From the NCBI GenBank assembly GCA_963747695.1, contig CAVVFV010000002.1, positions 1 to 60,301 of the forward strand: DNA of 60,301 nt. Reading direction: 5' to 3'. Below are positions 32,797 through 48,585 of the stretch, one piece after another; within the stretch, counting starts at the first letter, position 1; each line of letters starts with the position of its first letter. A program made the position numbers and the translations under genes. Origin of the DNA: Candidatus Falkowbacteria bacterium (GTDB lineage Bacteria > Patescibacteriota > Patescibacteriia > Patescibacteriales > WJLG01). A model generated the notes under the pieces. It saw nothing but the letters and a program-made list of their open reading frames with translations. It ran no database searches and was not told the DNA's origin.

Positions 32797-34731
32797 ATGC
32801 CGGCTAGAAAAAAGTTTATCATTTTAGTTTCTGCTCTATGCGCATCGGCGGTCATTTTGGCCGCCGGTGCGTTTGTCTTGGAGAAGCAAACTCGTCCCGC
32901 GCCGCAGGCCGCCGCGGAGATCATCCCGGTGGCGGAGACGGTCGATACTTTTCCCTATGATCACGATCTTTTCAACGAGGTGATCAGTAAGAATTATGCC
33001 GACCGGATGGCGACGAGCGGCCCGGTGGTGGCCGGACTTGTCCCGCATCATGATCTGGCCGGATCGCTCGCGGCGGAATTTTTTTCTTCGTTGGCGCAAA
33101 AACAAAAGGTCAAGAATTTTATCATCATCGGCCCGCTGCATTCCGACCAGTCCCTCGCCCCGATCATTTCCGGTCATTTTATTTGGGATGCGGGCTTCGC
33201 GCGCGTCGAAAATAATTATGCTATTCTCGACGAGCTGGTGAAAAGCGGTCTGGTCGTCTACAATGATCCGGCCGTTAAAACCGAGCACTCGCTTTATAAT
33301 ATGGTGCCGTTCATCGCCCACTATTTCCCGGAGGCGAAGATCGTGCCGATCGCTTTGACTTCGCATAATTCGCCCGAGCAATGTTTCGCCTTGGCGACCG
33401 CCTTGCAAAAATATCTGAAGCAAGGCGACACGGTCGTCGTCGCTTCGATCGATTTTTCCCATTATCTTCCTTCCGACCAGACGCCGGCCAAGAACGCCCG
33501 GATGATCGAGCTGATCAATGACCGCGATTATCAGACGATTTCCGGTTTGAAGAATGATTATTTGGATTCGCCGCCTTCGCTGATCACTCTGCTCCAAGCC
33601 GCGGATCTCTCCGGCGCGAGAGTTAATATTTTGCAGTCGACCAATTCCGGAGAGATCACCGGGACGCCCTATCTTTCTTCAACGAGTTACGTCAGCGCTT
33701 TTTTTGCCGCCCCCCTCCTTTCCAAGGAGGGGTCTCTCGGTGGTTCGGCAACGGGAGTACCGGGAGACAATTCCACAAGTGCGTTCCTGCCGACTGCCGC
33801 TAATAATCCGCTCAAGCTGCTTTTTTTCGGCGACATCATGCTTGACCGCCACGTGGGTGAAAAGATCAAAGCCGCGGGAAATTTGGACTGGATATTTTCC
33901 GCCCTGGATCGGGCCGGTATTTTTGCCGGCAACGATCTGGTTTCCGCCAATCTGGAAGGCGCGGTAACCGATAACGGCGCGCACTATCCGCCGACCTTGT
34001 CGATTGATTTTGCCTTTACGCCGGCACTGGTCGGCCAATTGGCCAAATATGATTTTAACTATTTCAATATCGCCAATAATCATTTAGCCGATCAGGGCAA
34101 AAATGGTATAATAGAGACAGAAAAAAATTTGGCCGATCTGGGTTTTGCTTTTGCCGGTTGTGCTGACCGGCAAATCGGTGATTGCACTTCGAAGATCATC
34201 CAGAAAAACGGCCGCCGGATCGGACTCGTCGGCGCCAGCATGGTTTACGGGTCGCTCGATGAAAAAGCGCTGCTTAGTCAGGTTAAAGAATTGGCGAGTA
34301 CGACCGATTTGGTCGTTGCGCAAATGCACTGGGGCACGGAATATCAGCACGCGGCCAACAAAAATCAGATCAGTCTGGCGCATCAGTTGATCGATGCCGG
34401 CGCCGATCTGGTTATCGGAACGCACCCGCATGTTGTCGAAGGCATTGAGATCTATAAAGATAAACCGATTTTTTATTCCTTGGGCAATTTCGTCTTTGAC
34501 CAATATTTTTCTACCGATACCCAGCAAGAATTGGGCGTGCAGATTACCGCTGATGGCAATGATTTTAAAATCGATCTCTTACCGATCGAATCCGAAGCTT
34601 CCCAGCTGCGCTTAATGAATGATCAAGAAAAAAATAAATTTTTATCCGAACTGGCTGGCTGGTCAATCGGCAGCGAAGATTTAAAAAATGAAATAAGAAG
34701 CGGTATAATACAAGTAAAAAGTAATAAGTAA
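32797..34731 (+). CDS. Membrane-anchored fusion: MEMO1/AmmeMemoRadiSam-B-like domain + CapA (PGA_cap metallophosphatase-like) domain
   Basis: N-terminal TM helix. The Memo-like part has GLVPHHDLAG, IIIGPLH, TEHSLYNMVPF and SIDFSHY. The CapA-like part has LLFFGDIMLDR, ANLEGAV, NIANNHLAD, AQMHWGTEY and GTHPHVVEGIE. The junction carries a palindromic element (33712-33732). Confidence 0.75.
   Translation: MPARKKFIILVSALCASAVILAAGAFVLEKQTRPAPQAAAEIIPVAETVDTFPYDHDLFNEVISKNYADRMATSGPVVAGLVPHHDLAGSLAAEFFSSLAQKQKVKNFIIIGPLHSDQSLAPIISGHFIWDAGFARVENNYAILDELVKSGLVVYNDPAVKTEHSLYNMVPFIAHYFPEAKIVPIALTSHNSPEQCFALATALQKYLKQGDTVVVASIDFSHYLPSDQTPAKNARMIELINDRDYQTISGLKNDYLDSPPSLITLLQAADLSGARVNILQSTNSGEITGTPYLSSTSYVSAFFAAPLLSKEGSLGGSATGVPGDNSTSAFLPTAANNPLKLLFFGDIMLDRHVGEKIKAAGNLDWIFSALDRAGIFAGNDLVSANLEGAVTDNGAHYPPTLSIDFAFTPALVGQLAKYDFNYFNIANNHLADQGKNGIIETEKNLADLGFAFAGCADRQIGDCTSKIIQKNGRRIGLVGASMVYGSLDEKALLSQVKELASTTDLVVAQMHWGTEYQHAANKNQISLAHQLIDAGADLVIGTHPHVVEGIEIYKDKPIFYSLGNFVFDQYFSTDTQQELGVQITADGNDFKIDLLPIESEASQLRLMNDQEKNKFLSELAGWSIGSEDLKNEIRSGIIQVKSNK
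33712..33732. repeat. GC-rich palindrome CCCCTCCTT-TCC-AAGGAGGGG inside a CDS (domain junction)
   Basis: Nine-bp arms, translated in frame as PLLSKEG. Homologous to 48085-48105. Confidence 0.9.
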
Positions 34732-38922: not shown

Positions 38923-39708
38923 ATGAATATCGATCATCAAATCAAACAAATAGCGATCACGGCGGCTAAGAAAGCCGGCAAAGAGCTTGCAGCGGAATAT
39001 TTTCGCTTCAATCGTAAGGACGTCCAAATGAAATCGCGTTTTGAAATTTTGACCCGCGCGGATTTGTTGAGCGAAGAGATTATTTTAAAAGAAGTGAGGA
39101 AAAATTTTCCCCATCATCATATTCTTTCCGAAGAGACCGGCGATAATAAAGTTGAGTCTGATTATTTTTGGATCATCGATCCGCTCGATGGTACGACTAA
39201 TTTTTTCATCCATGATCCGATCTGGTCGATTTCCATCGCCGTGGCCTATCAGGGCGAATTGATCCTGGGAATCGTCTACGCTCCGATCTTGGACGAATTT
39301 TATTTGGCGGAAAAGGGAGAAGGCGCGACGCTGAACGGCCGGGCGATCAATGTTTCGACCATCGCTAAAAATCAGGTGCTGAATTTATTCTGTCACGGGC
39401 ATAACGAGCCAGGGATAAAAAAAGCCGTGAAATATTATGCTTACCAGAAGCTGCGCGGTTTTGACTGCCGCCAATTAGGTTCGGCCGCCTTGGAATTGGC
39501 TTATACCGCGGCCGGCCGAGTCGAATCGATCGCCATTGCCGGCGCTGACGTTTATGATGTGGCCGCCGGAGTATTGCTAGTCAAAGAGGCGGGCGGCAGG
39601 GTTACCGATTTAAAAAATGTTGACTGGAATATTGCGAGCATGGATATGATCGCCTCTAATGGCAAAATTCATTCGGATATTTTAAGCGTTTTTAGGAAAT
39701 TAAGGTAA
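38923..39708 (+). CDS. Inositol monophosphatase family protein (SuhB-like)
   Basis: ILSEE, WIIDPLDGTTNF and the typical C-terminal GG.V.D motifs, 261 aa. Confidence 0.85.
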   Translation: MNIDHQIKQIAITAAKKAGKELAAEYFRFNRKDVQMKSRFEILTRADLLSEEIILKEVRKNFPHHHILSEETGDNKVESDYFWIIDPLDGTTNFFIHDPIWSISIAVAYQGELILGIVYAPILDEFYLAEKGEGATLNGRAINVSTIAKNQVLNLFCHGHNEPGIKKAVKYYAYQKLRGFDCRQLGSAALELAYTAAGRVESIAIAGADVYDVAAGVLLVKEAGGRVTDLKNVDWNIASMDMIASNGKIHSDILSVFRKLR

Positions 39709-39712
39709 GGTC

Positions 39713-39741
39713 TTGACAGCGCCGGCGAATTATCATATCAT
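39713..39741 (+). promoter_or_regulatory. Consensus-like sigma70 promoter with no protein gene downstream
   Basis: TTGACA (39713-39718), a 17-nt spacer, then TATCAT (39736-39741). The next convincing CDS downstream is on the opposite strand. Confidence 0.5.
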
Positions 39742-39747
39742 TCTTTA

Positions 39748-39837
39748 CACTTGGTTGTTCTCTTCCCTGTAAATGACTAGGGGACTGGACATGGGCCTTG
39801 TTGAACGAACGATCGTTTGGCAAGGCCTCTTTTATTT
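39748..39837 (+). ncRNA. Candidate small RNA 1 (promoter to terminator, ~90 nt)
   Basis: Begins ~7 nt after the -10 at 39736-41. Ends in hairpin GGCCTTG...CAAGGCC (39794-39827) plus a U-rich tail. The 3' 37 nt are paralogous to 40045-40082. Confidence 0.3.
39794..39837 (+). terminator. Terminator T1 in the non-coding cluster
   Basis: GGCCTTG (39794-39800) pairs with CAAGGCC (39821-39827), followed by TCTTTTATTT. The loop contains the palindrome AACGATCGTT. Confidence 0.6.
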
Positions 39838-40071
39838 GCTATGATTATTTTGGTTCCTTAACCTCTTTTCTGAATAGGAAAAGAGAAATCAGCATTTCAA
39901 CCCCTTTAACCAGGAGTGGATTATGCGTCAATTTACCATCGGCCAAAATATTGGCCCCCCGGCGATCCTTATCGCCCAATCAAGCGCACGGTAAAAGAAA
40001 AACGCCGTGGAATTGCTTATCGGGCTTTGCCAAAGACGAAGGAATCGTTTTGGCAAGGCCCCTTATTTTTT
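39838..40071 (+). ncRNA. Candidate structured RNA 2 (~230 nt) with five stem-loops
   Basis: Perfect hairpins at 39863-39885 (8 bp), 39941-39956 (6 bp), 39961-39976 (6 bp) and 39987-40009 (5 bp). A 13-bp terminator stem lies at 40022-40061, followed by a T-run. It contains a 23-codon ORF (39923-39994) with AGGAG, but that ORF is spanned by the hairpins. Confidence 0.35.
40022..40071 (+). terminator. Terminator T2 in the non-coding cluster
   Basis: Thirteen-bp stem GGGCTTTGCCAAA/TTTGGCAAGGCCC (one G-U) with a 14-nt loop, followed by CTTATTTTTT. Confidence 0.8.
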
Positions 40072-40377
40072 GCTCATTATTAAAATTAGTTCAAAGATTA
40101 TCCCCTCTAAAAAGGGGCGTTAGCCAAATAAACCTCCCACTTTCAGCTAGAAAGGACAGCCGTCTATGATTGCGAAAATCGTAGCCACAAGGACGCAGTC
40201 CCCATCGCGCGCATGCGCATGAAGCAAACCGGCATTACTAATGAAAGGAAGGTTACGGTGAGACGCAAACTCCCGCCGTCGAGGGATTCCCCGCCAGAAT
40301 AATAGTTTCGGGCAATATCCGATAATCAGTCGGAAGCCAGCGGAAGCAAGACACCATGTTTGCTTCCGTTTTATTTT
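40072..40377 (+). ncRNA. Candidate structured RNA 3 (~300 nt)
   Basis: Hairpins at 40102-40117 and 40163-40183, and a GCGCATGCGC palindrome. A terminal 9-bp stem CGGAAGCAA/TTGCTTCCG (40341-40368) is followed by TTTTATTTT. Only 14-18-codon ORFs are present. Confidence 0.25.
40341..40377 (+). terminator. Terminator T3 in the non-coding cluster
   Basis: CGGAAGCAA-gacaccatgt-TTGCTTCCG followed by TTTTATTTT. Confidence 0.8.
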
Positions 40378-40400
40378 ATAAAAGTCGTGGTATTGACAGA

Positions 40401-40499
40401 TTTTTAAATATCCAATATCAAATAATAAATATCCAAAAAATATTATAATATTTAAATATTTTTTAAAATATTGGTTATTTGATATTGGATATTTAAAAA
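40401..40499. repeat. Large AT-rich inverted repeat with perfect 25-bp arms
   Basis: tttttaaatatccaatatcaaataa (40401-40425) pairs with ttatttgatattggatatttaaaaa (40475-40499). The loop is 49 nt and the motif AAATATCCAA recurs. Confidence 0.9.
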
Positions 40500-40523
40500 C
40501 GCCGGCATTACGCCAGCGTTTTA
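40495..40523 (-). terminator. Terminator after uvrA (usable in both directions)
   Basis: AACGCCGGC-attac-GCCAGCGTT (1 mismatch), flanked by AAAAA and TTTT. Confidence 0.7.
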
Positions 40524-40533
40524 TAATTTAAGC

Positions 40534-40555
40534 TCTTATCTCTTCTCTCTTAATT
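40534..40555. repeat. 22-nt CT-rich repeat, copy 2 (overlaps uvrA stop codon)
   Basis: tcttatctcttctctcttaatt is identical to 19435-19456. Confidence 0.85.
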
Positions 40556-43429
40556 TATTATCTTACTTAGGTATTGCCCGGTATAGCTTTTCTTCACTTT
40601 AGCCACCTGGACCGGCGTGCCTTGCGCGACGATCTCGCCGCCTTTGTCGCCGCCTTCGGGGCCAAGGTCGATGATCCAGTCGACTGATTTGATCACTTCC
40701 ATATTATGTTCGATGATCAAGACCGTATTGCCGCGGTCGACCAGTTTATTCAAGACTTCCAAAAGATTCTTGATATCGTCGAAATGCAAACCGGTGGTCG
40801 GTTCGTCCAAAATATAAAGCGTGCGGCCGGTAGCGCGGCGGGATAATTCGGTAGCCAGTTTGACGCGCTGCGCTTCGCCGCCGGATAAAGTCGTAGCCGA
40901 TTGGCCGACTTTGATATAACCCAAGCCGACTTCGTTCAACATCGCGATTTTTTGGTAGATCGCCGGGACGTTTTCGAAGAAAGTCATCGCTTCCTCAATC
41001 GTCATATCCAAGACATCATAAATATTTTTGCCTTTGTAATAAATTTCCAAAGCTTCCTTGTTGTATCTTTTGCCGTGGCAGACTTCGCACTCGACATAAA
41101 CGTCGGGCAAGAATTGCATTTCGATCTGCACCATCCCGTCGCCGGCGCAGGCTTCGCAGCGGCCGCCCGGAACATTGAAAGAAAATCTTCCCGCATTGTA
41201 GCCGCGGATCTTGGCTTCGGGGAGCGAAGCGAACAGATCGCGGATCGGCGTGAAAGCGCCGGTATAAGTAGCCGGGTTGGAGCGGGGCGTTCGGCCGATC
41301 GGCGACTGATCGATATCGATAACTTTATCGATCGCATGCAAGCCTTCGATCCGGTCATATTTGCCCGGTTCTTCTTTGGCGCCGTAAAAGAATTTGGATA
41401 AATAACGGGCGAGGATATCGTTCATCAAAGTGGATTTGCCCGACCCGGAAACTCCGGTGATGGCGATGAATTTGCCGAGCGGGAATTCCACGTCGATATT
41501 TTTCAGATTATTTTCCCGGGCGCCGATGATCTTTAATGTCTGGCCGGAACCGTGCCGGTATTTTTCCGCGACCGGAATGAATTTCTTTCCCGATAAATAT
41601 TGGCCGGTCAAGGACTTGGGATTGGCTTCGATCTGGGCGGGCGTTCCCACGGCGATGATTTCGCCGCCGTGAATGCCGGCTCGCGGGCCGACATCGACGA
41701 CATAATCGGCGGAGCGGATCGTCTCTTCATCATGCTCGACGACGATCACGCTATTGCCCAAATCGCGCAGTTCTTTCAGGGTGCTGATCAATTTGGAATT
41801 GTCGCGCTGATGCAAGCCGATCGAAGGTTCATCGAGGATGTACAGAACTCCGACCAAGGCAGAGCCGATCTGCGTCGCCAAACGGATGCGCTGGGCTTCG
41901 CCGCCGGATAAGGTCATCGCGGCGCGGTCAAGCGTCAGATAATCCAAGCCGACATTGGACAAGAATAACAGCCGGGCGCTGATCTCTTTCAAGATTTGCG
42001 CTGAGATTTTTTTGTCTTTGGCCGTCAGGTTTTTGGAAATCAATAAAGCGCTGAAGAATTTTTTGGCTTCGTCGATATTCTTGACGGAAATGTCGTTGAT
42101 ATTCAGACCCTCGATCTTTACGCCCAAAACTTCCGGTTTCAAACGCTTGCCGCCGCAGGTGGGGCAGACCAAGACGCGCATATATTTGCCGATCTCTTTG
42201 CGGACATAATCAGAATCAGTCTGCTGATAGCGGCGTTCCAGATTGGGGATCACGCCTTCGAAATTGGTGACCAGTTCGCCGGAAAAACGATCGGATTCAT
42301 AATCCATCCGGTAATCTTTCTTGCCCGTGCCGTATAACAAAATATCCAGTTGATTCTTGGTAAAATCCTTGAGCGGCGTATTGAGATCAAAACCATATTC
42401 TTCGCCGACCGTGCCCAAAATGCGCAGCAGCCAAGTCTGCGGACCGTTGATGGCGTGCGACATCGGCCGGATCGCTCCTTGCGCCAGAGTCAGATTCTTA
42501 TTGATGATCGTATCGGCGTCGATTTCCAATTTTGTGCCGAGCCCATCGCAGGAAGGACAAGCGCCGTGCGGCGTATTGAAAGAAAAATTGCGCGGCTCCA
42601 ATTCCACCATGGAGATGCCGCAATCGGGGCAGGCGAATTGTTTGGAAAAAATCCGTTCCTCTTCCGGCCGGACATGGTCATTCTTGTCATAGGGCGCGAT
42701 GATCACCAAGCCATTCGACATATCCAGCGCCTTCTCGACCGATTCGGTCAGGCGCGCGGTCTCTTCCTTGCCGGCTTCGACTTTGATCTTATCGATGACG
42801 ATTTCCACCGAATGTTTTTTTTGTTTGTCGATTTCCATATCTTCCAGATCTTCCAAGGTGTAAATTTTTCCATCAAAGCGCACCGAACCGAAACCGGCCT
42901 TGGCGATTCCCTCGATGATGTTGCGATGTTCGCCCTTCTTGTCTTTGACGATCGGGGAAAGGATCATCGCCAGCTGTCCGACATAATGTTTGTCGATCTG
43001 CTCGACAATTTCATCGACCGTATATTTTTTTACTTTCTTACCGCAGATCGGGCAATGCGGGACGCCGATGCGGGCGTAAAGCAATCTCAAGTAATCATAA
43101 ATTTCCGTCACCGTGCCGACGGTGGAGCGGGGATTGTGCGAAGCGGTTTTCTGGTCGATGGAAATGGCCGGCGAAAGTCCGTCGATCTGATCGACATCCG
43201 GCTTGTCCATCAAGCCGATGAATTGGCGGGCGTAAGCGGAAAGCGATTCGACATAGCGGCGCTGGCCTTCGGCATAGAGCGTGTCAAAAGCCAAACTCGA
43301 TTTGCCCGAGCCGGAAAGTCCGGTGATGACGACCAGTTTGTCGCGCGGAATTTCCAGTGAGACATTTTTTAAATTGTGAACGCGCGCACCCTTGATCTTG
43401 ATGACTTTATTGTTCTGCGGCTTACTCAT
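40550..43429 (-). CDS. uvrA: Excinuclease ABC subunit A
   Basis: Two ABC modules ([18 protein letters not shown]; LSGGEAQR twice) and CxxC zinc modules. Start ATG 43429 ([22 protein letters not shown]); an alternative GTG lies at 43450. Confidence 0.95.
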
Positions 43430-43575
43430 AAATTTAATTGAAATTTTCACTCTCGTCCGAGCGGAGCGGCGCGAAATTGAGAGTTAAGGGGTTATTTACT
43501 AAATGGTTAGTATATACCAAAAAGGCGGTTGGCGCAAGAGCGCCGACAGCTTTGAGCCGTTAAAATGACCAAGGA

Positions 43576-47469: not shown

Positions 47470-48585
47470 ATGATCATATTTTTATATGGCGAGGACGATT
47501 TCCGCGCCAAGAAGAAAATCAGCGAATTGAAGGATAAATTTCTGCGGGAAGTGGACAAATCCGGCGGCAGCATCGAATCTATCGACGGCAAGACGGCGGA
47601 TTTGCGCGAGATCAACGAGAAGGCGGCGACGGCTTCGCTTTTGGCGTCCAAGCGGATGATCATCATCGAAGATATTTTTTCCAACCGCAACAAAGAATTA
47701 CTGCCCGAGGTCGCGGAATATTTTCAGGCCAAAGAAAAGAATAAATGGGAAAATATTGTTATCTTCTGTGATAACTCGATCAAGGCCAAAAGGAAGATGG
47801 GCGGCGAAGAGATCGTTAAAGCCGATGCCGAGGGTCGCGATAAACCGCTGGGAAAAAAAGAAAAAGAATTATTTGTTTTTTTGGCTAAGCAAAAATTTGT
47901 TCAGGAGTTTAAAAAATTAAATAACACTGATCTGGGCGCTTGGATAAAAAAGGAAGTCGAAGCTCGCGGCGGCGCGATTTCCAGCCGCGCCATCCAGACC
48001 TTGATCGGCCTAATCGGTTATGATCTTTGGCAGATCGACCGCGAGATCGATAAATTGATCAATTATAAAAGCGGCGAGAAATCCCCCCTCCTTTTCAAGG
48101 AGGGGCAGGGGGTGGTTAATAATGAATTCCCCTCCCCGGGAGGGGTGCCGAGCCCGGCGAGGCGGGGTGGGTTTCCAATTGAAGTTGACGACGTGGATAA
48201 ATTAGTCAAAGGTAATTTCGACGATAATATTTTCGCCCTGACCGACGCGATCGGCGCGCGCAACAAAGCCGCGGCCGCGCAGCTTTTGGAAGAGCAATTC
48301 GAATTGGGCGCCAACGAAATTTATTTGTTAACGATGATCACCCGGCAGATAAAAATAATCCTGCAAGTTCGGCAAGCGCTGGATCTTGGCCAGTCATCGC
48401 GGCAAATAATTTCCGAATTAAAATTAAATCCATATGTGGTGCAGAAGGCGATCGAGCAAGCTCGGCACTTCAGCCTCAACGCTTTAAAAATAATTTTTGA
48501 CAAGTTAATCGAGATTGACTTCAAAATAAAAACCGGCCAGGGCGAAGCGGCGGCATTGATCGAGCTTTTGATCGCTAAATTTTAG
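47470..48585 (+). CDS. holA: DNA polymerase III delta subunit with an in-frame palindromic-element insertion
   Basis: MIIFLYGEDDF..., NIFALTDAIG, ...YLLTMITRQIK and LNPYVVQKA are typical of HolA. About 32 aa (SPLLFKEGQGVVNNEFPSPGGVPSPARRGGFP) are encoded by GC-rich palindromes at 48085-48145. Confidence 0.8.
   Translation: MIIFLYGEDDFRAKKKISELKDKFLREVDKSGGSIESIDGKTADLREINEKAATASLLASKRMIIIEDIFSNRNKELLPEVAEYFQAKEKNKWENIVIFCDNSIKAKRKMGGEEIVKADAEGRDKPLGKKEKELFVFLAKQKFVQEFKKLNNTDLGAWIKKEVEARGGAISSRAIQTLIGLIGYDLWQIDREIDKLINYKSGEKSPLLFKEGQGVVNNEFPSPGGVPSPARRGGFPIEVDDVDKLVKGNFDDNIFALTDAIGARNKAAAAQLLEEQFELGANEIYLLTMITRQIKIILQVRQALDLGQSSRQIISELKLNPYVVQKAIEQARHFSLNALKIIFDKLIEIDFKIKTGQGEAAALIELLIAKF
48085..48145. 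repeat. GC-rich palindromes inside holA (CCCCTCCTT-TTC-AAGGAGGGG and CCCCTCC-CCG-GGAGGGG)
   Basis: The palindromes lie at 48085-48105 and 48129-48145. They are translated in frame as PLLFKEG...PSPGG. Confidence 0.9.

What the first reader, a model, noticed from the sequence alone, without database searches (positions are those of the whole stretch)
39713..40377. Orphan promoter, three intrinsic terminators and a chain of perfect hairpins in a 650-nt ORF-poor region: candidate structured-RNA cluster
Seen in the sequence: after the IMPase gene there is a consensus-like promoter (TTGACA-17-TATCAT). The next convincing CDS is uvrA, on the opposite strand. The interval contains three plus-strand terminators (39794-39837, 40022-40071 and 40341-40377). 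The 3' ends of units 1 and 2 are paralogous: atcgtttggcaaggcctcttttatttgctatgattat versus atcgttttggcaaggccccttattttttgctcattat. Unit 2 carries four further perfect stem-loops (39863-85, 39941-56, 39961-76, 39987-40009). The 123-aa ORF in the track (39798-40169) starts at TTG, crosses two terminators and has an implausible composition. Only 14-23-codon ORFs have SD-like sequences (39923-39994 MRQFTIGQNIGPPAILIAQSSAR; 40166-40222). I could not match RNase P, tmRNA, SRP or 6S signatures by eye. Inference: this is a set of small structured RNAs and/or micropeptide genes of unknown function.
Basis: seen in the sequence. Interest (0 to 1): 0.62.

Follow-up and report, generated by a model that had tools for sequence, protein, structure and literature searches.

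The report
Small RNA and micropeptide gene cluster
The 650-base gap between two housekeeping genes of a tiny uncultured (Patescibacteria) bacterium holds real but ordinary mini-genes found only in its closest relatives: a roughly 90-base small RNA, a gene for a 23-28-residue peptide, and a third, less conserved RNA.

Summary

**What is there**
- The spacer between the IMPase and uvrA genes holds three plus-strand units. Each ends in a strong intrinsic terminator (-16 to -26 kcal/mol).
- The promoter and terminators are kept in five relatives from the same genus-level group, with different stem sequences.
- Unit 1 is a candidate ~90-nt small RNA with a conserved 5' end (ACACTTGGTTGTTCTCTT).
- Unit 2 is an mRNA for a peptide of 23-28 residues (39923-39994). 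Four species keep the core [GS]PPA[ILS][IL]xA[KQM], mostly through third-codon-position changes. One relative has lost an internal hairpin region, apparently by an in-frame deletion, yet keeps the reading frame. The ribosome-binding site and start codon are paired in a 5' hairpin.
- Unit 3 (~300 nt) is conserved in blocks. Its small ORF shows no amino-acid constraint.
- Terminator 2 with its weak promoter looks like a duplicate of the terminator 1/promoter 2 module.

**What it is not**
- No Rfam, Pfam or NCBIfam family matches, and the long ORF has no protein homologue.
- The 123-aa ORF is spurious.
- The cluster was found only in the genus-level group.

**Limits**
- The function is unknown.

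This is a modest finding: new, lineage-specific members of known kinds.

The parts
39713..39741 (+). Promoter P1 (TTGACA, 17-nt spacer, TATCAT), directly after the IMPase stop codon
   Evidence: It matches 11 of 12 consensus positions. TTGAC and the -10 region are kept in all six relatives despite different spacers. Genome-wide, sites of this quality are about four times more common than in shuffles, and 72% lie in the 14% of the genome that is non-coding.
39747..39837 (+). Unit 1: candidate ~90-nt small RNA. It has a conserved 5' end ACACTTGGTTGTTCTCTT (39747-39764), a variable hairpin, and terminator T1.
   Evidence: The 5' motif GG[TG]TGTTC[TG]CTT lies 8-20 nt after the -10 box in G000, G001, L085, L086 and L087, and occurs once in the own genome. 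The fold has z = -6.2. The start site is inferred from the -10 position, not measured.
39793..39837 (+). Terminator T1 (16-bp stem plus T tract). It probably also ends the IMPase transcript.
   Evidence: Seen. A hairpin plus T tract is present in all six relatives at -20.6 to -25.1 kcal/mol. L087 has a quite different stem sequence.
39817..39845 (+). Promoter P2 (TTGGCA, 17-nt spacer, TGcTATGAT). Its -35 box lies inside the 3' arm of T1, forming a composite terminator-promoter.
   Evidence: It matches 10 of 12 positions with an extended -10 TG. Relatives keep a -10 box here: TATAAT in G001 and G002, TACGAT in L085, TATAAT in L028.
39852..40071 (+). Unit 2: ~220-nt mRNA carrying the small ORF. 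It has a 5' hairpin at 39863-39885, and a hairpin at 39892-39926 that pairs the SD and AUG with an upstream CU-rich stretch.
   Evidence: The same architecture is predicted independently in G000, G002 and G001. Pair probabilities are 0.73-0.93 for the SD/AUG hairpin. The 5' hairpin is 0.98-0.99 in G000 and G002 but only 0.30 in G001. Its stem sequence differs between species while remaining paired. The 5' end is inferred.
39923..39994 (+). smORF1, a 23-aa peptide: MRQFTIGQNIGPPAILIAQSSAR. The SD AGGAG sits 6 nt upstream.
   Evidence: Orthologues of 25, 25 and 28 aa exist in G002, G001 and L085. A test of BLOSUM score against re-placed substitutions gives P = 0.005, 0.06 and 0.002 in this frame only. 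The nine-codon core against L085 differs at 11-13 of 27 nt, 7-8 of them at third positions, with P = 0.0005-0.003. L085's ORF is shorter before the PPA core and still open, consistent with an in-frame deletion of the hairpin region.
39941..39976 (+). Two perfect hairpins inside smORF1 (39941-56 and 39961-76)
   Evidence: They are real in G000 and G002. The first is absent in L085 and the second is altered in G001. They are therefore not the conserved entity.
39982..40018 (+). Hairpin H4, with an A-rich loop that holds the smORF1 stop codon
   Evidence: The stems are CACGG/CCGTG in G000, CGCGCA/TGCGTG in G002 and GATCGG/CCGATC in G001, each with an A-rich loop. L085 has a different small hairpin at this place.
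40022..40071 (+). Terminator T2, followed by a degenerate promoter-like tail (TTGGCA...TGcTCATTAT). It looks like a duplicate of the T1/P2 module.
   Evidence: It is a 17-bp hairpin of -26.2 kcal/mol with a T tract. G002 keeps it with a different stem. It shares 22 nt at 86% with T1. It is missing in G001 and L085.
40072..40377 (+). Unit 3: ~300-nt RNA with conserved blocks. These include the hairpin CCCCTCTAAAAAGGGG (40102-40117), an SD-like GAAAGGA, and the mini-ORF at 40166-40222. It ends at T3.
   Evidence: It is 70% identical to G002, alternating conserved and variable blocks, with 4 compensatory pairs out of 54. L085 has a shortened version and G001 lacks it. The mini-ORF shows no amino-acid-level signal (P = 0.19). 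Its own promoter is uncertain.
40339..40377 (+). Terminator T3
   Evidence: Seen. It is kept in G002 and G001 with a different upper stem, and L085 has a different hairpin in its place.

Best explanation
The spacer between the IMPase and uvrA genes carries a cluster of small, separately terminated genes on the plus strand. The cluster was found only in the genus-level group.

**Unit 1.** Promoter P1 drives a ~90-nt RNA with a conserved, CU-rich 5' end, a variable hairpin and terminator T1. This is the usual anatomy of a base-pairing small RNA. T1 probably also ends the IMPase transcript.

**Unit 2.** Promoter P2 has its -35 box inside the T1 stem. It drives a ~220-nt mRNA with a 5' stem-loop, and its ribosome-binding site and AUG are paired with an upstream CU-rich stretch. 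The mRNA encodes a 23-28-residue peptide with the conserved core [GS]PPA[ILS][IL]xA[KQM]. I infer that translation is held back by that hairpin and is conditional.

**Unit 3.** This is a less conserved ~300-nt RNA. In L085 it sits on the same transcript as the peptide gene. In G000 and G002 it has been split off by what looks like a duplicated copy of the T1/P2 terminator-promoter module (T2).

**Shown here:** the signals, their conservation, and amino-acid-level constraint on smORF1.

**Inferred:** transcript ends, translation control, and any regulatory role. The biochemical function of the peptide and the targets of the small RNA are not known.
For: **Signals**
- The promoter and terminators are present and kept in six relatives, some with changed stems.
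- Sites as good as P1 are strongly enriched in non-coding DNA genome-wide.

**Conservation above the neutral level**
- Unit 2 has a mean column identity of 81% over G000, G002 and G001, and unit 3 is 70% identical between G000 and G002.
- Four-fold degenerate sites are 47-53% identical in IMPase and 66-74% in uvrA.

**smORF1**
- The SD, the AUG and an open frame of 23-28 codons are present in four species.
- Amino-acid constraint appears only in this frame.
- The codons for the PPA core vary synonymously: CCC CCG GCG, CCT CCG GCG, CCC CCG GCA, CCG CCC GCC.
- L085's ORF lacks the hairpin at 39941-56 and is 5 codons shorter before the PPA core, yet stays open, consistent with an in-frame deletion.
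- SD/AUG pairing is predicted independently in three species.

**Unit 1**
- The conserved 5' motif is present in five relatives and occurs once in the genome.
Against:
- Only four to six closely related sequences are available, so covariation is weak and the statistics rest on short alignments.
- G002 has a diverged unit 1 5' end.
- L086, the closest relative by IMPase identity, has a different gene after T1 before its contig ends.
- No significant target complementarity was found for the unit 1 seed: 2198 hits against about 2560 in shuffled genomes.
- Hfq was not found in the genome.
- The smORF1 N- and C-termini vary a good deal.
Confidence: 0.6

Rival explanations
1. The units are purely non-coding structured small RNAs. 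The ORF at 39923-39994 is incidental, and its apparent conservation reflects RNA hairpins.
For: The units fold better than shuffles. Hairpins lie inside the ORF, and the GGCC...GGCC stem coincides with the G-x-x-x-G residues. The SD and AUG are base-paired.
Against: L085 lacks the first internal hairpin yet keeps an open frame. The PPA core varies at third codon positions, and only frame 0 shows constraint. Covariation is negligible. No Rfam family matches.
Confidence: 0.12
2. smORF1 is a leader or arrest peptide. Ribosome pausing at Pro-Pro, dependent on EF-P or proline supply, sets read-through of terminator T2 and so controls expression of unit 3.
For: The PP motif is invariant in four species. 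In G000 and G002 the ORF is followed by a hairpin and a terminator. EF-P is encoded in the genome.
Against: G001 has no T2 and no unit 3, and L085 has no T2, yet both keep smORF1. I did not see a convincing alternative antiterminator pairing by eye (reading). The stop codon lies about 28 nt before T2, too far for a terminating ribosome to cover it. No protein gene lies downstream; uvrA is convergent.
Confidence: 0.1
3. This is a type I toxin-antitoxin-like module. Unit 2 encodes a small toxic peptide whose translation is blocked by its 5' structure, and the unit 1 RNA is the antitoxin.
For: A small RNA gene sits next to a structured small mRNA with a sequestered SD and AUG. The units are tandem, partly duplicated and lineage-specific, and lie in an intergenic spot.
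Against: The peptide is not hydrophobic: I estimate an average hydropathy of about 0.1 by hand from the sequence, and it has a Pro-Pro in the middle. It therefore has no transmembrane helix. The unit 1/unit 2 duplex energy is no better than shuffles (z = -0.1 to -1.2), and the predicted sites differ between species. There is no antisense promoter.
Confidence: 0.07
4. This is non-functional debris: remains of a decayed gene, or of inserted repeats that happen to carry promoter- and terminator-like sequences.
For: The spacer is a hot spot for repeat insertions. G002 and L087 carry extra MITE-like elements, and an AT-rich palindrome with about two dozen copies abuts the region. Spacer length varies from about 420 to about 1960 nt.
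Against: The long ORF has no protein homologue, and no Pfam or NCBIfam family matches. Apart from the palindrome, the region is unique in its own genome. Its conservation is well above that of IMPase four-fold sites, though unit 3 is no higher than uvrA. smORF1 is under amino-acid-level constraint.
Confidence: 0.06

Closest known systems
Stand-alone bacterial small-protein genes and dual-function small RNAs (for example SgrS/SgrT, RNAIII/delta-haemolysin, SR1/SR1P)
   Same: These are short transcripts with their own promoter and intrinsic terminator. They carry an SD-led ORF of fewer than 30 codons and have structured untranslated parts.
   Different: There is no sequence similarity to any of them, and no known target or partner. 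The cluster was found only in one genus-level group of Patescibacteria.
Base-pairing small RNAs with a conserved 5' seed (for example RybB, OmrA/B)
   Same: Unit 1 has a conserved single-stranded 5' end of about 18 nt, a variable middle part and an intrinsic terminator.
   Different: No Hfq was found in the genome. No enriched or conserved target site was found. No Rfam family matches.
Type I toxin-antitoxin loci (ibs/sib, tisB/istR, zor/orz)
   Same: These are tandem small intergenic units in which a peptide mRNA has its ribosome-binding site locked in structure and a small RNA gene lies next to it.
   Different: The peptide is not a hydrophobic membrane peptide. No complementarity was found between the two RNAs.
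Leader-peptide attenuators and proline-dependent arrest peptides (mgtL/mgtP, the RAPP-type arrest peptides ApdA/ApdP); comparison from my own knowledge
   Same: A short ORF with an invariant Pro-Pro lies upstream of a terminator hairpin.
   Different: There is no regulated downstream gene. Two species that keep the ORF lack the terminator.
TIGR arrays of TIGR-Tas systems (PMC12045711), which are frequent in Patescibacteria
   Same: These are non-coding stretches with several short hairpins, ended by a rho-independent terminator.
   Different: This region has no periodic repeat units of about 36 nt. No Nop-domain (Tas) gene was found in the genome.

Membership tests
Any Rfam family (including RNase P, tmRNA, SRP, 6S) | The covariance-model score reaches the family's gathering threshold | tested here: not met
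   In 39000-41000 at E<=10, every hit scored well below its gathering threshold (best 25 bits against 65). The same holds for the relatives' spacers. RNase P RNA and tmRNA lie elsewhere in the genome.
Sigma-70-type promoter | -35 and -10 hexamers at 16-18 nt spacing, kept in relatives | tested here: met
   P1 matches 11 of 12 positions and P2 matches 10 of 12 plus a TG. P1 is kept in six sequences. Such sites are enriched genome-wide in non-coding DNA. Activity was not measured.
Intrinsic (rho-independent) terminator | A stable GC-rich hairpin directly followed by a U tract | tested here: met
   T1, T2 and T3 have 14-17 bp and -16 to -26 kcal/mol, followed by T-rich tails. The orthologous hairpins in relatives have 11-17 bp and changed stem sequences.
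Protein-coding small ORF | SD and start codon kept, frame open in relatives, substitutions biased towards synonymous or conservative changes | tested here: met
   For smORF1 (39923-39994). For the second ORF (40166-40222) the feature is not met: P = 0.19.
Protein-coding small ORF | Evidence of translation (ribosome footprints or detected peptide) | not testable with these tools
   No such data were available.
Type I toxin-antitoxin | A hydrophobic, membrane-spanning toxin peptide | tested here: not met
   The peptide is MRQFTIGQNIGPPAILIAQSSAR. I estimate an average hydropathy of about 0.1 by hand, the longest hydrophobic run is 6 residues (AILIA plus flank), and there is a Pro-Pro in the centre (read from the sequence).
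Type I toxin-antitoxin | An antitoxin RNA complementary to the toxin mRNA | tested here: not met
   Unit 1/unit 2 duplex z-scores are -1.2, -1.0 and -0.1, and the predicted sites differ between species. No minus-strand promoter was found.
Leader-peptide transcription attenuator | A terminator and a regulated gene downstream of the leader ORF, kept together with it | tested here: not met
   G001 and L085 keep the ORF but lack T2. No downstream coding gene lies on this strand.
TIGR array (TIGR-Tas) | Tandem units of about 36 nt with edge and loop repeats, next to a Nop-domain tas gene | tested here: not met
   No such periodic repeats were found. PF01798 was not found in the genome. The definition is taken from PMC12045711.
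Hfq-dependent base-pairing small RNA | Hfq present, and conserved seed-target complementarity | tested here: not met
   Hfq (PF17209) was not found. Seed complements are not enriched. A conserved 5' seed-like end does exist, so an Hfq-independent small RNA remains possible.

The most novel reading that the evidence does not exclude
The locus may show how new mini-genes arise in these reduced genomes. A composite terminator-promoter cassette, with its -35 box inside the terminator stem, can duplicate, as T1/P2 appears to have done to give T2. Such cassettes, together with pyrimidine/purine palindromes that carry an SD-like arm, could turn spacer DNA into new transcription units. Under this reading smORF1 would be a young, possibly de novo, peptide gene already under purifying selection. 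Its invariant Pro-Pro-Ala core might act on the ribosome or on a partner protein.
Probability: 0.12. Interest if true: 0.55.

Novelty: new member of a known kind. Interest (0 to 1): 0.3.

Why it matters
Patescibacteria (CPR) genomes are annotated almost entirely by protein homology. My two full-text literature searches turned up no systematic description of their small RNAs or micropeptides. This locus provides one well-delimited candidate small RNA and one micropeptide gene with comparative support for translation. Standard gene callers miss both: the peptide is under 30 residues, and the ORFs that gene callers or a simple ORF listing report here instead are spurious long ones. The locus also shows a compact terminator-promoter design and how repeat insertions and module duplication reshape a spacer. 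On the other hand, the cluster was found only in one genus-level group, its function is unknown, and nothing about it challenges current ideas.

Tried and rejected
1. **Housekeeping RNAs.** Rfam found nothing in the region. RNase P RNA and tmRNA lie elsewhere. No tRNA or tmRNA is in the window.
2. **Decayed protein gene.** Pfam and NCBIfam gave nothing. A search of the 123-aa ORF against 5.8 billion proteins found no hit.
3. **Phage or mobile origin.** No phage or viral match was found. The region is unique in its own genome except for the adjoining AT-rich palindrome.
4. **Wider distribution.** None of the following found anything convincing outside the genus-level group:
   - DNA search in 40 relatives;
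   - peptide profile in 200 genomes of the order;
   - covariance model R1 in 150 genomes;
   - promoter-plus-seed pattern in 300 genomes.
   The weak R1 hits turned out to be the widespread CCCCTCCTT...AAGGAGGGG palindromes.
5. **Unit 1 as an antisense partner of unit 2.** Not supported.
6. **Targets of the unit 1 seed.** No enrichment was found.
7. **TIGR array.** Rejected.
9. **Extra sequences.** The first genome-contig scan found nothing. The second returned only G001's own contig. The metagenome scan added L027 (the same sequence as G001) and L028. Three further relatives (L085-L087) came from looking up IMPase homologues.
Full report
**Context**

The window is contig C2 of a 1.46-Mb, 14-contig genome that is 99% complete. 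Its relatives are labelled "Patescibacteria group bacterium" in public records. The finding covers most of the 841-bp spacer between the IMPase gene (38923-39708, + strand) and the 3' end of uvrA (40550-43450, - strand).

**Checking the observation**

- Promoter TTGACA-17-TATCAT lies at 39713-39741 and matches 11 of 12 positions. A second promoter-like site, TTGGCA-17-TGcTATGAT, lies at 39817-39845.
- Terminators at 39793 and 40339 were found by the scan.
- The scan missed the terminator at 40022-40071, which it would read as 13-bp arms with a 14-nt loop. It folds as a 17-bp hairpin of -26.2 kcal/mol followed by a T tract.
- The four perfect stem-loops are in the minimum-free-energy structure with pair probabilities of 0.93-0.99.
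- The 3' ends of units 1 and 2 share 22 nt at 86% identity.
- The three units fold better than dinucleotide shuffles, with z = -6.2, -4.8 and -3.3.

Locally, the promoter and terminator counts do not exceed shuffles. Genome-wide the picture is different. Sites matching 11 of 12 or better number 131 against about 31 in shuffled genomes, and 94 of them lie in the 14% of the genome that is non-coding. A site like P1 in a spacer is therefore very probably a real promoter.

**Known families**

- Rfam gave nothing in the region or in the relatives' spacers.
- RNase P RNA and tmRNA are elsewhere in the genome.
- No tRNA or tmRNA lies in the window.
- Neither the peptide nor the long ORFs match Pfam or NCBIfam.
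- The 123-aa ORF has no homologue among 5.8 billion proteins.
- There is no phage or viral match.

**Relatives**

The region is unique in its own genome apart from the adjoining AT-rich palindrome at 40401-40499. That palindrome has about two dozen copies and is the subject of another finding.

Homologous spacers, all between IMPase and uvrA, exist in two species of the same genus:
- G002 (locus L022);
- G001 (L023, the same sequence as L027 and L042).

Three metagenome contigs reached through IMPase homologues add to these:
- L085 (IMPase 81% identical);
- L086 (88%);
- L087 (81%).

Nothing convincing was found outside this genus-level group, by any of four searches:
- DNA search;
- peptide profile in 200 genomes of the order;
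- covariance model in 150 genomes;
- promoter-plus-seed pattern in 300 genomes.

More distant IMPase genes are followed by a Memo/AMMECR1 gene instead.

Conservation is mostly above the neutral level:
- Unit 2 has a mean column identity of 81% over G000, G002 and G001.
- Unit 3 is 70% identical between G000 and G002.
- Four-fold degenerate sites are 47-53% identical in IMPase and 66-74% in the uvrA C-terminus. Unit 3 is therefore above IMPase but no higher than uvrA.

The spacer varies from about 420 nt (G001) to about 1960 nt (G002). The variation comes from insertions and deletions:
- G002 carries a 150-nt and a 200-nt MITE-like repeat, each with many copies in G000.
- G002 also has a private unit of about 650 nt, running from a promoter to a terminator.
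- L087 has an insertion of about 190 nt with inverted ends.
- G001 lacks T2 and unit 3.

**Unit 1**

P1 is kept in all six sequences. TTGAC and the -10 region are invariant while the spacers differ. About 6-8 nt after the -10 box comes ACACTTGGTTGTTCTCTT. The motif GG[TG]TGTTC[TG]CTT is present in G000, G001, L085, L086 and L087, and occurs once in the genome. G002 has diverged here.

A variable hairpin follows, then T1. T1 is a hairpin of 14-17 bp plus a T tract in all six, and L087 has a quite different stem sequence. This is the anatomy of a base-pairing small RNA with a 5' seed. Because T1 lies 85 nt after the IMPase stop codon, it probably ends that transcript too.

I could not find targets. 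Seed complements are not enriched, with 2198 hits against about 2560 in shuffled genomes. The duplex with unit 2 is no better than shuffles. Hfq was not found.

**Unit 2 and the peptide**

P2 has its -35 box inside the 3' arm of T1, so the two form a compact composite terminator-promoter.

The transcript carries four predicted elements in G000, G002 and G001:
- a 5' hairpin;
- a two-tier hairpin that pairs the SD and the AUG with an upstream CU-rich stretch;
- the small ORF;
- a hairpin whose A-rich loop holds the stop codon.

The SD/AUG hairpin is predicted independently in all three species, with pair probabilities of 0.73-0.93. The 5' hairpin is 0.98-0.99 in G000 and G002 but only 0.30 in G001.

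The ORF encodes these peptides:

| Species | Peptide |
|---|---|
| G000 | MRQFTIGQNIGPPAILIAQSSAR |
| G002 | MLHFTIGQNIGPPAIIVAKKTARIK |
| G001 | MFHLTYGLTLGPPASLSAMPRRKIG |
| L085 | MTTLHSPPALISAKIDKNPNAKKAAIAV |

I tested for amino-acid constraint by re-placing the observed substitutions at random positions and comparing BLOSUM scores.
- In the ORF frame the test gives P = 0.005, 0.06 and 0.002 for the three pairs.
- It gives nothing in the other two frames, which hold the 123-aa and 55-aa ORFs and contain stops in relatives.
- Against L085, the nine-codon core differs at 11-13 of 27 nt, 7-8 of them at third positions. P is 0.0005-0.003, again only in frame 0.
- The PPA codons read CCC CCG GCG, CCT CCG GCG, CCC CCG GCA and CCG CCC GCC.

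L085 lacks the first internal hairpin (39941-56 in G000). Its ORF is 5 codons shorter before the PPA core and remains open, which I read as an in-frame deletion. In G001 the second hairpin is altered. The reading frame, not the chain of hairpins, is therefore what selection keeps.

The long ORF that JGI called in L085 lies in a different relative frame from the 123-aa ORF of G000. Both are spurious.

**Unit 3**

G000 and G002 share alternating conserved and variable blocks with a few local hairpins. Only 4 of 54 predicted pairs are compensatory.

The mini-ORF at 40166-40222 keeps its SD-like GAAAGGA, its start and its stop. The length difference between the two species is one codon. Its amino-acid signal is not significant (P = 0.19), and in L085 it is only 9-10 codons long.

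In L085 there is no T2, so smORF1 and the unit 3 remnant lie on one transcript. In G000 and G002 they are separated by T2. T2 and its tail look like a duplicate of the T1/P2 module, but the -10 box in G000 is degenerate (TCATTA(T)). Whether unit 3 has its own promoter is therefore uncertain.

**Rival readings**

| Rival | Why I rank it lower |
|---|---|
| Pure structured RNAs | The loss of the hairpin in L085 with the frame kept, and the codon pattern, argue against it. |
| Leader-peptide or Pro-Pro arrest attenuator | Two species keep the ORF but lack T2, and there is no regulated gene downstream. EF-P is present. |
| Type I toxin-antitoxin | The peptide is not hydrophobic, and the RNAs are not complementary. 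|
| TIGR array (PMC12045711) | There are no periodic repeats and no Nop-domain gene. |
| Debris | Conservation and the amino-acid constraint on smORF1 argue against it. |

**Verdict**

What is there is a lineage-specific trio:
- a candidate small RNA;
- a micropeptide mRNA with a locked ribosome-binding site;
- an accessory RNA.

These sit in a spacer that is also a landing site for repeats. Their function is unknown. I take the peptide gene as likely (about 0.75), the independent small RNA as more likely than not (about 0.55), and the overall picture at 0.6. This is a modest finding: new members of known kinds.

Noticed in passing
Whole genome G000: No SRP RNA (RF00169 best hit 13.9 bits; RF01854 none) and no 6S RNA (RF00013) were detected in a 99%-complete genome, although RNase P RNA and tmRNA score well. 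The SRP RNA may be divergent or unassembled.
   Followed up: partly
L022 2095-2762 (G002, between T3 and the AT-rich palindrome): This is a unit of about 650 nt with a consensus promoter (GGTATTGACA...) and its own terminator. It has no plausible ORF and no Rfam hit. It has no homologue in G000 or in 40 relatives, so it is private to that species. In G000 the same promoter (40393-40421) runs straight into the palindromic repeat.
   Followed up: partly
L022 1356-1510 and 2918-3125; L087 1133-1300: MITE-like repeats are inserted in the relatives' spacers. The two G002 elements have 10 to 30 copies each in G000. The L087 insertion has inverted ends, AACCCATCTCAAAAA / TTTTTTGAGATGGGTT.
   Followed up: partly
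window 40401-40499: This AT-rich palindromic element has about two dozen further copies in the genome. It is kept at the same place in G002. It is the subject of another finding.
   Followed up: partly
L048 (G006), L028, L046/L047 (G007/G005): spacers downstream of IMPase in family-level relatives: These spacers also hold promoter/terminator units with tandem tiny SD-led ORFs. Paralogous pairs differ mainly at synonymous sites: MIFTTGFL / MFTTGFT in G006 (P = 0.001) and MGKKIPLARGP / MGRMIPFARSP... in L028 (P = 0.007). G007 and G005 share MIRDPPM / MIRAPPR... with the SD in a hairpin.
   Followed up: partly
window 48084-48115 and 33713-33735; L073, L075, L077: Palindromes of the type CCCCTCCTT-loop-AAGGAGGGG are widespread. 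Their 3' arm is a perfect SD sequence. They occur in genes and in spacers across the order, and they caused the weak covariance-model hits. The SD/anti-SD hairpin of unit 2 resembles a degenerate copy.
   Followed up: no
L042 (DATJQC010000082.1): The public record of G001's contig is titled 'Candidatus Nanoarchaeia archaeon'. It nevertheless carries bacterial uvrA, sigma-70-type promoters and an IMPase 78% identical to this Patescibacteria genome. This is probably a taxonomic mislabel.
   Followed up: no
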